This document shows, in pieces, positions 46,020-59,571 of a DNA stretch of 64,000 nt. The number at the start of each line of letters is the position of its first letter. The first letter of the stretch is position 1. Where the stretch lies: the IMG/VR virus record IMGVR_UViG_3300020044_007580, positions 4,257 to 68,256 of that record; one strand, given 5' to 3'. Below the pieces are notes generated by a model that was not told the DNA's origin, did not search any database, and saw only the letters and a program-made list of their open reading frames with translations. A program made the position numbers and the translations under genes. The stretch comes from a virus.

Positions 46020-47051
46020 TTAAGAAGACAACCGAGCAACCATGTCTGATAGGCGCTGTGCATCTTTCTGGAACTTCTCGATGACTGCTTGCAATTCTGG
46101 AGACTGTGTCGTAGCTAAGTCTGGATTGTTAGGCGCAGATTGCTTGGCCCAGACTTGGCGTATACTGTCGTGGCTGTTAGAAGTATTGCGCTTGATGTAC
46201 TTTTGTGTGATGTTGATCGAGCTGTGATCTAGCAGGCGCGTTGCCTCAAGAACCCCAACTCTTTCTGCCATCATGGTTCCGGCTGTATGTCGTAACGCAT
46301 GTGGCGTGAACTTGTATGGTAGGTTTAGCTTAGAGATGTACCCTCGCAGTCCACCTTGACTTGCTGGCTCCGACCCTGTACCTGGGAATAGGTAAGCATT
46401 CCTAACGCTGCGCTGTTCTCTGAGGCGTATGTACTGTTGCGCTATATCTTTGAACGTCTGACCATTAGGCATGACAATGTCCAGTGGGATGCTCTTCTCT
46501 ATGTCCTCGACTGTACGTGATTTCTGTCTGACAATGAAGAAGGACAACTCGTCCTTGGTCAGCTTGTAGTTCTTTGCTGTTAGTGCTGCAGAGATTCGTG
46601 CTCCAGTAAAGAGCATGACACACATTGTTACGTAGTGCTTGATGTCCCCGTAGGTAGAACGGTAGTTGTCCATACGCTGAAACAGGACTTGCAGTTGATC
46701 GTCGGACATTGCTTTGTCAGACCAGTCACTACTAGTCTTGATGGCGAATCGCTTTATAAGCTCAGAGGCGGCAGTGCTATCAATCAAGTATTGATCTTTC
46801 AGTATAGCTGCAAGAGTCTTGGCATACTTGTAGCGAGCATTGCGAGTGTGCGAGGATTGAGCTAAGTAATCTCTGATCAACAGAACTAGCTCGACTCCGT
46901 TTGGGAATGTATCTTGTTTGTAGTAGTCTAGCAGTACATTCATAGACCTGCGAGCAAGTTGCTGCAAAGACTTTGATGGCACGTCTCGTTTTTTAGTTGG
47001 CATCATACAGTACACATTGACTGCGTTCAATAGTTGGGCTCTAGTTGTCAT
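46020..47051 (-). CDS. Tyrosine recombinase/integrase
   Basis: Catalytic set R (FTGARIS), K (RQKS), HxxR (HALRH), H (LLDHS), Y (TQKY). Confidence 0.9.
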   Translation of the reverse strand: MTTRAQLLNAVNVYCMMPTKKRDVPSKSLQQLARRSMNVLLDYYKQDTFPNGVELVLLIRDYLAQSSHTRNARYKYAKTLAAILKDQYLIDSTAASELIKRFAIKTSSDWSDKAMSDDQLQVLFQRMDNYRSTYGDIKHYVTMCVMLFTGARISAALTAKNYKLTKDELSFFIVRQKSRTVEDIEKSIPLDIVMPNGQTFKDIAQQYIRLREQRSVRNAYLFPGTGSEPASQGGLRGYISKLNLPYKFTPHALRHTAGTMMAERVGVLEATRLLDHSSINITQKYIKRNTSNSHDSIRQVWAKQSAPNNPDLATTQSPELQAVIEKFQKDAQRLSDMVARLSS

Positions 47052-57048: not shown

Positions 57049-57072
57049 ACGACCTCCTATTAATGAGATGTG

Positions 57073-57103
57073 AAAAAATATGAGACCGCCAATAGACGGC
57101 CCT
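57073..57103 (-). terminator. Terminator-like hairpin containing one repeat copy
   Basis: GGCCGTC-TATT-GGCGGTC followed by TCATATTTTTT on the minus strand. Confidence 0.5.
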
Positions 57104-57109
57104 GAAAAA

Positions 57110-57848: not shown

Positions 57849-57918
57849 CAAGTTATGGGACCGTCAATAGACAAAATATCAGACCGCCAATAGACCAACG
57901 TGTATAGCTATCGGTCGC

Positions 57919-57943
57919 AAAAAAAAGGGGCTCAAAGCCCCTT
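57919..57943 (-). terminator. Intrinsic terminator
   Basis: AAGGGGC-TTTGA-GCCCCTT running into T8 on the minus strand. Confidence 0.75.
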
Positions 57944-57949
57944 CCGATA

Positions 57950-58390
57950 CTATTTTTCCCACGATTTTGGGAAAACTTGCATACCATCGACTACAATATA
58001 CGTCCGCTCATCCACGCCGACCGAACGTAACGCGCGACCGCATTGTATAACATCCCGTACCGCCTTGCGCGCTTGATTCGGTCGCTCGTGGACTCTCGCC
58101 ACCTTGCGCGACTTGTGCCCCGTATCTTCGACGCCGACGACGTCCCCCGAATCGTTGTACAACTCTCGCAATGCAAACTCCCAACGAGCGCCCGTACACG
58201 CCGCCCACAGTGGCGGAAGACGCAACGCGACCCGCTCGAACTCGCCCCGCCTACGTTCCGCCGCTACAAGCGGAAGCAACGCTCGTTCATTGCCATCATA
58301 CCACGGAACCCGACGACCGCCCAACGTGTAGCACGCGAACAGGTCGCCCCGTCGCTTCGTGAAACTCTCCCGCTTCAGCACGAACCACAT
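57950..58390 (-). CDS. Hypothetical Arg-rich protein
   Basis: 146 aa, AAGGGGG RBS, terminator directly downstream. Confidence 0.6.
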   Translation of the reverse strand: MWFVLKRESFTKRRGDLFACYTLGGRRVPWYDGNERALLPLVAAERRRGEFERVALRLPPLWAACTGARWEFALRELYNDSGDVVGVEDTGHKSRKVARVHERPNQARKAVRDVIQCGRALRSVGVDERTYIVVDGMQVFPKSWEK

Positions 58391-58454
58391 AGAACCCCCT
58401 TAGGTTAGTTTGACAGTACAGAAGTGGACGCGCATATGATGATGAGAAAAAAAA

Positions 58455-58498
58455 GACCGACCAAAGACCGACCAAATACCGACCAAATACCGACCGAC
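58455..58498. repeat. Tandem 11-bp repeat (ACCGACCAAA-like, four copies)
   Basis: ACCGACC at 58456, 58467, 58478, 58489. Confidence 0.85.
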
Positions 58499-58501
58499 GA
58501 C

Positions 58502-59071
58502 CTACGCCGTCACCGTCCTTGCTTGTTTCGCCTTGGCTTGCGTTGCCGCGTGTACTTCCGCCGTAGGCGACTTTGCACCCGCCTTGGCAGTTAGGCGGAT
58601 AACGCCGAACCACTCAGGCGTGACGTCGTACCGTAAGGCAATCCGCCCGCGGCTATGGTCAACGTCCACCTGCACAGTGAAGACTCCCGCACGATTGACC
58701 CGGCGGACTTCTTTCACCGCGAGACCGAGGAGCAGGAGGACAGGAGTACCCGGAGGCAACCCCGAGCCAGTGCAATCATTCGCCATCGCCCAGAGGTCCG
58801 CACCGAGATTGTACGTCTCTCCCTTCGGTGGATCGCTCGCACCATTGAAGAGCGCCGTATCTACCGCATGGCATACTCGCTGTTCCCACTCCGCGAAGAG
58901 ACCGCGGACAGCAGCTCTACACGTTTTGAGCGCCGCGGTCATTGCCTTCCGCCGTGTTTCGGCAGTTTCGGCATTGACCCGCTCAACTATTTCGCAGTCG
59001 CCAAACGAGACTTGCGGAAGCCCCAGCACATTCGTTACGCCAGCAATCTGTTTTGCCTTGATGATGTCCAT
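58502..59071 (-). CDS. Hypothetical protein, first gene of the leftward array
   Basis: 189 aa from MDIIK after AAGGG. Confidence 0.6.
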   Translation of the reverse strand: MDIIKAKQIAGVTNVLGLPQVSFGDCEIVERVNAETAETRRKAMTAALKTCRAAVRGLFAEWEQRVCHAVDTALFNGASDPPKGETYNLGADLWAMANDCTGSGLPPGTPVLLLLGLAVKEVRRVNRAGVFTVQVDVDHSRGRIALRYDVTPEWFGVIRLTAKAGAKSPTAEVHAATQAKAKQARTVTA

Positions 59072-59453
59072 AATATACCCTTGTGACACGCGCCCACTTC
59101 TATACTATCGACTCGGCACGGGAGAAGGTGAGCCCGCACATAATACCTTCAGTTTGCCGAGGTTGAATTTCCAAAGACCAGCAGGGGAGCGGAAGCGCCA
59201 GAAGTAGCGACAAACGCAGACCCTACCAATACGACGCGAGGCGCCACCAATAACGACGCGAAGCGGAACGACGCGGAACGAAAACCCCCGCCCCCCCCGT
59301 TTTGCGAAACCCCACCCCTACCATCACACAGCGGAACCTAGAGAATCCTCTATATGTCCACCCGCAAAACTTTCACCATTTTTGAGTTTCGACTTTCCAC
59401 ATTCCCCTTTTGATCCCCTCAGCAACTTTTTTGCACCGAATAGAAACTTTTTC

Positions 59454-59482
59454 TTGACATGGCCTGAGAATCGTTGTATATT
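59454..59482 (+). promoter_or_regulatory. Sigma70-type rightward promoter
   Basis: TTGACA (59454-59459), 17-nt spacer, TATATT (59477-59482); AT-rich upstream. Confidence 0.75.
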
Positions 59483-59505
59483 GCACGTATTAGCGGAAAC
59501 GAGTT

Positions 59506-59571
59506 AAGCAAACTGCAAGCAAAAGCCAAGCAAAGCTAAAGCAAACAGAAAGCAAACCACAAGCAAACTGG
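59506..59571. repeat. Six AAGCAAA units at exact 11-bp period (iteron-like)
   Basis: Starts at 59506, 59517, 59528, 59539, 59550, 59561; a further copy at 59795. Confidence 0.9.

What the first reader, a model, noticed from the sequence alone, without database searches (positions are those of the whole stretch)
58412..59109. First early gene enclosed by a 21-bp long-range duplex that is perfect only on the coding strand
Seen: on the minus transcript 5'-GAUAGUAUAGAAGUGGGCGCG (59109-59089) pairs over all 21 positions with CGCGUCCACUUCUGUACUGUC (58432-58412). The three non-Watson-Crick positions are all G-U, and would be A-C on the other strand. The ~655-nt loop holds the RBS, the whole 189-aa ORF and the 11-bp repeat array. 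A further hairpin (CTCGGCA..GAAGGT/ACCTTC..TGCCGAG, 59112-59161) lies just upstream. Known: rRNA precursors use long-range stems as RNase III sites and in antitermination. Inference: an rRNA-style processing or stabilising stem for an mRNA; alternatively recombination sites for inversion by the phage tyrosine recombinase.
Basis: partly seen in the sequence, partly recalled or inferred. Interest (0 to 1): 0.75.

Follow-up and report, generated by a model that had tools for sequence, protein, structure and literature searches.

The report
Long-range RNA stem enclosing phage gene
Two short complementary sequences on either side of an orphan gene in an uncultured freshwater phage can pair as RNA into a 24-base-pair helix that probably marks the message for cutting or protection, but no related genome or RNA data could be obtained to prove it.

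Summary
On the minus strand, 59109-59089 pairs with 58432-58412 at all 21 positions (18 Watson-Crick, 3 G-U). The pairing runs on to 24 contiguous pairs (59109-59086 with 58435-58412; 5 G-U).

The helix encloses the RBS, the 189-aa ORF, a 4-copy 11-nt repeat array and a U8 tract.

As a DNA inverted repeat it is unremarkable: 18 of 21 within 1.5 kb occurs 2 times in the window and 0-1 times per shuffle. As an RNA helix it is the strongest in the window: -39.1 kcal/mol against -25.9 to -31.2 for the best stem in each of 15 shuffles. Its pair probability is 0.80-1.00 in three transcript contexts.

Both arms lie in untranslated spacers of one transcription unit.

I could not test covariation. ORF189 has only two true distant homologues, no DNA of relatives could be fetched, and four near-identical strains show no change in the arms. 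No inverted form was seen: 5 of 5 arm-spanning contig pieces keep the reference orientation.

My best reading, at confidence 0.5, is a long-range mRNA helix of the RNase III processing or clamp type. Chance or relic (0.3) and DNA-level sites (0.15) remain open.

This scan has noted the same architecture on other phage DNA, reportedly with covariation there.

The parts
59086..59109 (-). 5' arm of the long-range helix (21-nt core 59109-59089 plus 3 further pairs). It lies 2 nt after hairpin H1 and 2 nt before the SD of ORF189.
58412..58435 (-). 3' arm of the long-range helix, in the ORF189-ORF146 spacer. It lies 11 nt after the U8 tract and 10 nt before the SD of ORF146.
59112..59161 (-). Bipartite hairpin H1 (7 + 6 pairs) directly upstream of the 5' arm. 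A weak promoter-like site (TTCAAC-16-TATTAT, 8 of 12) overlaps it.
   Evidence: (-19.3 kcal/mol, z -2.54)
58502..59071 (-). ORF189, an orphan protein inside the loop (SD AAGGG at 59083-59079). It has two true distant homologues (38% and 33-34% identity). Structural matches are weak and mostly to winged-helix domains.
58452..58495 (-). Four tandem 11-nt repeats (GGUCGGUNUUU on the RNA) inside the loop. Copy number differs between strains.
   Evidence: D2; one copy more in X4, one fewer in X1
58447..58454 (-). U8 tract after the repeats, forming a terminator-like site with only a weak G-U-rich stem. It lies between ORF189 and the 3' arm.
   Evidence: 71 nt: -10.1 kcal/mol, z 0.17, centroid unstructured
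57950..58390 (-). ORF146, an Arg-rich protein of unknown function immediately downstream of the 3' arm. Two Logan proteins are 68-70% identical to it by BLASTP (70-72% in the alignment).
57919..57943 (-). Strong intrinsic terminator that closes the two-gene GC-rich module.
   Evidence: -17.9 kcal/mol, z -3.08, 0 of 200 shuffles as good

Best explanation
The two arms are the halves of a long-range RNA helix formed within the leftward (minus-strand) transcript. The 5' UTR of ORF189 pairs with the spacer between ORF189 and ORF146, looping out the whole ORF189 message. A continuous 24-bp duplex is what double-strand-specific RNase III cuts. The most likely function is therefore a processing and end-clamping site: a staggered cut would free the ORF189 message from its structured leader and from ORF146, leaving its two ends base-paired, and would give ORF146 a new 5' end. 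Shown here: the pairing, its strand specificity, its statistical rarity as RNA, its thermodynamic dominance and its placement in untranslated spacers. Inferred: that both arms are on one transcript, that RNase III or another enzyme cuts there, and the consequence for expression.
For: 1) All 24 positions pair on the minus-strand RNA only; the plus-strand RNA has three A-C breaks. 2) The duplex energy is -39.1 kcal/mol, against a best stem of -25.9 to -31.2 in 15 of 15 shuffled windows and a next-best real stem of -30.7. 3) The helix is in both the MFE and the centroid of the 776-nt transcript, with pair probabilities of 0.80-1.00 in 776-, 1101- and 1501-nt contexts. 4) Both arms lie wholly in non-coding spacers on the coding strand of two co-oriented genes, and only about 5% of the window is uncovered by ORFs in a rough greedy call. 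5) The U8 tract between ORF189 and the 3' arm has only a weak stem, so read-through into the 3' arm is plausible. 6) Published RNase III maps show such substrates. In E. coli the two cuts of one stem lie 16-1080 nt apart (PMC6212723, passages). In B. subtilis many targets are duplexes formed over more than 100 nt (PMC11780869, passages). 7) Predicted RBS opening energies are not raised by the helix: ORF189 6.6 with the 3' arm against 7.1-8.5 kcal/mol without it, and ORF146 5.5 with the arm sequestered against 8.5 with it free. This fits an insulating or processing helix better than a translational block.
Against: There is no comparative support. In 4 DNA runs of 98-99% identical strains the arms carry no substitution, but only about 0.4 would be expected from 21 variant positions in 2001 nt. 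No DNA of any distant relative was found. As DNA, the repeat is at chance frequency, so the whole case rests on three to five mismatches being G-U. The coding strand is G+T-rich, and C-to-T changes on it produce G-U without selection. By my own arithmetic, a stem this good by chance is about 0.005 per window. That is small here but not across a scan of about 250,000 windows, although requiring both arms to be intergenic cuts it by a further factor of 100 or more. The promoter was not located, so co-transcription of the 5' arm is assumed. A terminator-like U8 tract separates the arms. No other early gene of this phage has such a stem, so it is not a repeated architecture here. No Rfam family matches.
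Confidence: 0.5

Rival explanations
1. Chance or relic. This would be an 18 of 21 inverted repeat of the kind expected about once per one or two such windows, or the remnant of an old inverted duplication. Its mismatches happen to be transitions that read as G-U on the G+T-rich coding strand, and it has no function.
For: Repeats of 18 of 21 within 1.5 kb number 2 in the real window and 0-1 per shuffle (3 of 8 shuffles have one). The coding strand is G- and T-rich. The finding was selected by eye from a very large scan. The arms show no covariation. There is no second copy or related element anywhere.
Against: The uninterrupted 24-bp RNA helix was never approached in 15 shuffles. Both arms sit exactly in the two spacers that flank one gene, on its coding strand. 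The other 18 of 21 pair in the window (48578 with 49688) lies inside coding regions of oppositely oriented ORFs, as a chance pair would.
Confidence: 0.3
2. DNA-level paired sites. The two inverted copies of a 21-bp site would be bound by a protein. One possibility is crossover sites for inversion of 58433-59088 (an ON/OFF switch for ORF189). Another is two operators for a regulator, possibly ORF189 itself, which shows weak structural similarity to winged-helix domains.
For: It is an inverted repeat flanking a gene with its RBS. The phage encodes a tyrosine integrase (46020-47051). The neighbourhood is full of DNA repeats with 11- or 22-bp periodicity, typical of protein-binding arrays. The ORF189 model (pLDDT 74) finds mostly winged-helix domains, but weakly: VIA Z up to 5.8 and Foldseek probability up to 0.28.
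Against: 5 of 5 contig pieces spanning an arm, from 4 runs of 3 studies, have the reference orientation, and no joint was reported; contigs can miss rare forms. The only recombinase found is about 11 kb away and looks like an ordinary integrase. The arms have no internal dyad symmetry. The site is not significant as DNA. Strand-specific G-U mismatches and the three-pair G-U/A-U extension have no meaning for DNA sites. The fold matches are below the level the tool calls trustworthy.
Confidence: 0.15
3. Terminal inverted repeats of a small mobile cassette (IS- or MITE-like, or a transposed moron) carrying ORF189.
For: Imperfect 21-bp inverted repeats bound a 698-bp unit with one ORF. The unit lies in a GC-rich island (58-62% against about 47%).
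Against: There is no target-site duplication: the flanks read GGTTAGTTT and GACTCGGCA on the plus strand. There is no transposase signature. There is a single copy in the genome and none in IMG/VR. The GC island (57950-59350) extends well beyond the repeats and includes ORF146 and the leader. The ORF189 and ORF146 homologues appear to travel together on contigs of equal length.
Confidence: 0.05

Closest known systems
Leader-trailer processing stems of bacterial rRNA operons (RNase III); recalled from general knowledge, no call
   Same: Sequences on both sides of a functional RNA unit pair over hundreds to thousands of nucleotides into a long continuous helix that encloses the unit.
   Different: Here the enclosed unit is a protein-coding message with its RBS. 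No cleavage, antitermination boxes or conservation have been shown.
Long-range intramolecular RNase III targets in mRNAs of E. coli (Altuvia et al. 2018, PMC6212723) and B. subtilis (Taggart et al. 2025, PMC11780869); passages read
   Same: These are mRNA duplexes formed across more than 100 nt and up to about 1 kb, cut on both strands. The 24-bp length and 650-nt span fit these ranges.
   Different: Those sites are mapped experimentally in cellular mRNAs. This one is only a prediction in an uncultured phage, and its host and RNase III are unknown.
Lambda sib retroregulation of int; recalled, only a search listing seen
   Same: The distal half of an RNase III stem lies beyond a terminator, so only read-through transcripts form the full duplex. 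Here a U8 tract lies between ORF189 and the 3' arm.
   Different: sib is a local hairpin downstream of int, not a gene-enclosing helix. Here the terminator stem is weak, and neither antitermination nor decay has been shown.
5'/3'-UTR pairing in icaR of S. aureus (PMC3868564) and hbs of B. subtilis (PMC5737220); titles and abstracts seen in the listing
   Same: The two ends of one message pair and thereby control ribonuclease action and expression.
   Different: In icaR, from recall, the 3' UTR masks the SD. Here the helix stops 2 nt short of the SD and the predicted RBS opening energy is not raised. The 3' arm is an intercistronic spacer, not a terminal 3' UTR.
Invertible DNA segments flanked by inverted repeats (fimS, Hin/Gin systems, Bacteroides invertons); recalled
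   Same: Imperfect inverted repeats of about 20 bp bound a segment of a few hundred bp.
   Different: No inverted form appears in 5 of 5 arm-spanning contig pieces. There is no adjacent invertase. The segment holds a whole gene rather than a promoter. The mismatch pattern is strand-specific.

Membership tests
RNase III-type long-range processing stem | Near-continuous dsRNA of about 20 bp or more, formed by two segments of the same strand | tested here: met
   24 contiguous pairs, -39.1 kcal/mol, pair probability 0.80-1.00. This is in silico only.
RNase III-type long-range processing stem | Span between the arms within the range of mapped substrates | tested here: met
   The loop is 650 nt. 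The E. coli C1-C2 distance is 16-1080 nt (PMC6212723), and B. subtilis duplexes form over more than 100 nt (PMC11780869).
RNase III-type long-range processing stem | Both arms present on one transcript | not testable with these tools
   The genes are co-oriented and the U8 stem is weak. However, the promoter was not located and no RNA data could be laid.
RNase III-type long-range processing stem | RNase III-dependent staggered cuts (2-nt 3' overhang) in the helix | not testable with these tools
   This needs end mapping in infected rnc+ and rnc- hosts, and the host is unknown.
RNase III-type long-range processing stem | Pairing kept by compensatory changes in relatives | tested here: inconclusive
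   The arms are invariant in 5 of 5 covering contig pieces from near-identical strains.
Invertible DNA segment (inverton) | Inverted repeats bounding the segment | tested here: met
   18 of 21, but at a frequency expected by chance.
Invertible DNA segment (inverton) | Both orientations present in sequence data | tested here: inconclusive
   There were 0 joints, and 5 of 5 arm-spanning pieces are in the reference orientation in 4 runs. Contigs drop rare variants.
Invertible DNA segment (inverton) | Dedicated invertase or recombinase next to the segment | tested here: not met
   The 9 neighbouring ORFs tested have no recombinase domain. The only integrase found is at 46020-47051. Not every ORF of the genome was scanned.
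IS/MITE-type element with terminal inverted repeats | Target-site duplication at the outer ends | tested here: not met
   The flanks GGTTAGTTT and GACTCGGCA are unrelated.
IS/MITE-type element with terminal inverted repeats | Transposase, or multiple copies | tested here: not met
   ORF189 has no Pfam or PHROG hit. There is one pair of arms in the genome and none in IMG/VR.
icaR-type 5'/3'-UTR translational block | The 3' segment pairs with and masks the SD | tested here: not met
   The helix ends at 59086 and the SD is at 59083-59079. Predicted opening energy is 6.6 with the 3' arm against 7.1-8.5 kcal/mol without it.
sib-type retroregulation | A functional terminator between the gene and the distal half of the stem | tested here: inconclusive
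   A U8 tract is present and scored as terminator-like, but its stem is weak: -10.1 kcal/mol, z 0.17.

The most novel reading that the evidence does not exclude
The helix would be the read-out of a sib-like switch built into a portable two-gene early module. A leaky terminator, made of a copy-number-variable G-U repeat array plus U8, decides whether the 3' arm is transcribed. Only read-through transcripts close the 24-bp helix around the fast-evolving ORF189 message, are cut or clamped there, and release an ORF146 message with an open RBS. Strains would tune the ratio of the two proteins by gaining or losing 11-nt repeats.
Probability: 0.1. Interest if true: 0.6.

Novelty: new member of a known kind. 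Interest (0 to 1): 0.4.

Why it matters
If real, this adds an uncultured freshwater temperate phage to the cases in which a phage message is looped out by pairing of its flanks, as rRNAs are. That design would let a phage process a polycistronic early transcript into separately stabilised messages, and would treat the enclosed gene as an exchangeable unit. Other stretches of this scan report the same architecture with covariation. A shared mechanism across unrelated phages would be a general rule of phage early gene expression that is barely described in print. On its own, this locus cannot carry that claim.

Tried and rejected
Searches for relatives that found nothing usable:
- blastn of 57900-59500 against phages.
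- The search for related loci with ORF189, ORF146, the 242-aa neighbour and alignments A1 and A2 in viral contigs.
- A1 and P0004 in metagenome contigs.
- A1 and A2 in genome contigs.
- The arm pattern in viral contigs.
- tblastn of ORF146 and ORF189 against phages, and of ORF146 against plasmids.
- The 128-aa right-hand neighbour gave three IMG/VR loci, but tblastn of 18 window proteins found only that protein in them, so there is no synteny.
- The profile search with A2 found only the same three proteins.

Function of the proteins:
- Pfam and PHROGs gave nothing for ORF189 or ORF146.
- Foldseek against PDB and BFVD gave no match at E of 0.001 or better.
- VIA wide gave Z of at most 5.8.
- The ORF146 model is unusable (pLDDT 40).
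- The ESM Atlas gave no usable lead.
- P0003 (2026 aa, 10 matched stretches) is a repeat protein. I regard its match as an artefact of summed repeats and did not test this further.

RNA families: Rfam at E up to 5 gave only weak sub-threshold rows, none at the arms.

Promoter reading of the arms: rejected. The T-to-C differences between the arms destroy any -10-like hexamer in the second copy, and the relaxed scan gave nothing better than 8 of 12.

RNAduplex between all pairs of early spacers was uninformative, because shuffled controls scored as well.

Sequencing runs: no RNA holder was listed, so expression could not be examined. Only 4 of the 20 listed runs were laid. Parts of the stretch have no cover in X2-X4, and no conclusion is drawn from that. 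No joints were reported. Supplementary files of the papers were not opened; the supplementary tables of PMC6212723 and PMC11780869 may list phage or prophage long-range sites that bear on novelty.

Claim of rarity in print: this rests on two library searches only. I did not search specifically for phage gene-enclosing stems.

Full report
Setting. The window is bases 4257-68256 of a 68,256-bp IMG/VR virus record with direct terminal repeats, rated complete. PHROG hits identify a large terminase, portal, major head protein, a tyrosine integrase (46020-47051, minus strand), RecT and others. The portal is about 22% identical to those of Bcep22-like podophages of Proteobacteria. Contigs 98-99% identical to the region occur in freshwater and drinking-water metagenomes from 3 studies; 4 runs were laid, out of 20 listed. 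The finding lies at the right end of a block of minus-strand genes, next to a divergent region. A near-consensus plus-strand promoter sits at 59454-59482 (TTGACA-17-TATATT). The stretch 57950-59350 is a GC-rich island of 58-62%, against about 47% around it.

Observation.
- The 21-nt arms 59109-59089 and 58432-58412 pair at every position on the minus-strand RNA, with 18 Watson-Crick and 3 G-U pairs.
- On the plus strand the three wobble positions are A-C, and in a plus-strand RNA control those pairs have probability 0.
- The pairing continues for three more pairs, to 24 contiguous pairs (59109-59086 with 58435-58412).
- The 650-nt loop holds the SD, the 189-aa ORF, four 11-nt repeats and a U8 tract.
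- The hairpin at 59161-59112 is real and modestly better than shuffles: -19.3 kcal/mol, z -2.54.

Is it more than chance? This depends on the level of reading.
- As a DNA inverted repeat it is not. Pairs of 18 of 21 within 1.5 kb number 2 in the window, and 0 to 1 in each of 8 shuffles. The other real pair (48578 with 49688) lies inside two oppositely oriented coding regions.
- As an uninterrupted RNA helix it is. It is the longest of the 21 stems of 16 or more pairs found on either strand. Its energy of -39.1 kcal/mol was not approached by the best stem of any of 15 dinucleotide shuffles (-25.9 to -31.2), nor by any other real stem (-30.7 on plus, -26.2 next on minus).
- My own arithmetic puts the chance of such a stem at roughly 0.005 per window. 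Both arms also fall in non-coding spacers, and only about 5% of the window is left uncovered by a rough ORF tiling. That lowers the figure by about two further orders of magnitude.
- In a scan of some 250,000 windows a handful of such coincidences is still expected, so chance is not excluded.
- The G-U argument is also weaker than it looks. The coding strand here is G- and T-rich, and every C-to-T change on that strand turns a G-C pair into G-U.

Thermodynamics and context.
- The helix is part of both the MFE and the centroid structure of the 776-nt transcript.
- Its pair probabilities are 0.80-1.00 whether 776, 1101 or 1501 nt are folded.
- Before the 3' arm is made, the 3' half of the 5' arm can pair locally with 59137-59122, but that local fold is no better than shuffles (z -0.47).
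- The U8 tract between ORF189 and the 3' arm scored as terminator-like. Its stem consists of the G-U-rich repeats and is weak (-10.1 kcal/mol for 71 nt, z 0.17, unstructured centroid). Read-through into the 3' arm is therefore plausible.
- A strong terminator follows ORF146.
- The helix stops 2 nt before the SD of ORF189 and 10 nt before that of ORF146. Predicted opening energies of both RBS regions are not raised by helix formation, and for ORF146 are lowered from 8.5 to 5.5 kcal/mol. A translational block of the icaR kind is thus not supported.

Comparative evidence.
- ORF189 has no Pfam or PHROG family and only itself in the word-indexed search (1 hit among 265 candidates).
- The exhaustive HMMER search gave 4 proteins at E of 0.001 or better: ORF189 itself, P0002 (190 aa, 38% identity), P0004 (218 aa, 33% identity) and a 2026-aa repeat protein that I regard as spurious.
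- ORF146 has two homologues of 68-70% identity.
- Members of the two families sit on Logan contigs of identical lengths, 2937 and 1305 nt. I infer that the two-gene module is conserved in a relative, with ORF189 diverging much faster than ORF146.
- Laying the contigs of four DNA runs showed 21 variant positions and 5 indels in 2001 nt. None is in either arm, and 5 of 5 covering pieces agree with the window. Only about 0.4 changes would be expected there, so this says nothing either way.

DNA-level rivals.
- Inversion: all 5 pieces that bridge an arm have the reference orientation, and no joint was reported in 4 runs. Contigs can miss rare forms. No recombinase is adjacent.
- Mobile cassette: there is no target duplication, no transposase, and a single copy. 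The GC island extends well beyond the arms.
- Operator pair: the ORF189 model (pLDDT 74) gives mainly winged-helix domains as its best, weak matches. The leader and spacers are full of 11- and 22-bp periodic repeats. A DNA-binding story therefore cannot be dismissed. It does not, however, explain the strand-specific wobble pattern, and the fold matches are below the tool's own trust level.

Comparison with what is known.
- Long-range intramolecular duplexes are established RNase III substrates in cellular mRNAs. In E. coli the cut pairs lie 16-1080 nt apart (PMC6212723, passages). In B. subtilis many duplexes form over more than 100 nt (PMC11780869, passages).
- Pairing of 5' and 3' UTRs controls icaR and hbs (PMC3868564 and PMC5737220; titles and abstracts only).
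- The rRNA leader-trailer stems and lambda sib are cited from recall.
- The present helix fits the size and span of the RNase III class. Membership cannot be claimed, because co-transcription, cleavage and covariation are all untested.

Earlier notes of this scan. These are AI notes and I did not check them. They report the same gene-in-a-loop design in early operons of other phages, several with compensatory changes. That raises my prior for the RNA reading but is not evidence for this locus. Unlike some of those cases, this phage has only one such helix.

Verdict.
- The RNA processing or clamp reading is the best single explanation (0.5).
- Chance or relic stands at 0.3, DNA-level sites at 0.15 and a mobile cassette at 0.05.
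- It is a new, unproven member of a known kind.
- Interest is moderate (0.4). The locus itself is untestable at present, but one retrievable set of contigs would settle it.

Noticed in passing
window 58452-58495: The 11-nt repeat array (AAAGACCGACC / AAATACCGACC on the plus strand) varies in copy number between otherwise near-identical strains. There is one extra copy in run X4 and one fewer in X1. On the RNA the unit GGUCGGU is self-complementary through G-U pairs and ends in the U8 tract.
   Followed up: partly
window 59506-59567: Six copies of AAGCAAA at exact 11-bp spacing (family D1). They lie between the near-consensus plus-strand promoter (59454-59482) and the ATG of a 71-aa membrane-like ORF (59576). 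They look like an iteron or phased binding array in the rightward leader.
   Followed up: no
window 59283-59320 (minus strand): The leftward leader contains several G-runs (GGGG, GGGG, G8, G5) that fit a G-quadruplex motif on the coding strand. Logan contigs of X1 break at 59283-59309.
   Followed up: no
window 57049-57109, 57852-57949, 59225-59265: A degenerate motif, roughly TATTGGNGGTC on the minus strand, recurs in the leader and in the first intergenic spacers, always in the same orientation. It may be a protein-binding site on the DNA or on the transcript.
   Followed up: partly
window 57950-59350: This is a GC-rich island (58-62% against about 47%) comprising the leader, ORF189, ORF146 and a strong terminator. 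Homologues of both proteins appear to sit together on Logan contigs of 2937 and 1305 nt, with ORF146 at 68-70% identity but ORF189 at only 37-38%. It looks like a portable two-gene module with one fast-evolving member.
   Followed up: partly
window 57908-57924 and 59427-59443: A weak 17-nt inverted repeat (13 of 17 complementary) brackets the whole GC island, with 1502 nt between the arms (pair I5). It is probably chance.
   Followed up: no
window 59122-59150 and 59089-59100: Three-way alternative pairing is possible. GAAGGU (59150-59145) and GAAGUGGGCGCG (the 3' half of the 5' arm) compete for ACCUUC and its upstream bases (59137-59124). The 5' arm can therefore be held locally until the 3' arm is made. 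The local fold is not better than shuffles.
   Followed up: partly
window 59072: A strain variant (A>T on the plus strand) in X1 and X2 lies one base before the ORF189 ATG. X4 lacks one base at 58400, between the 3' arm and the SD of ORF146.
   Followed up: no
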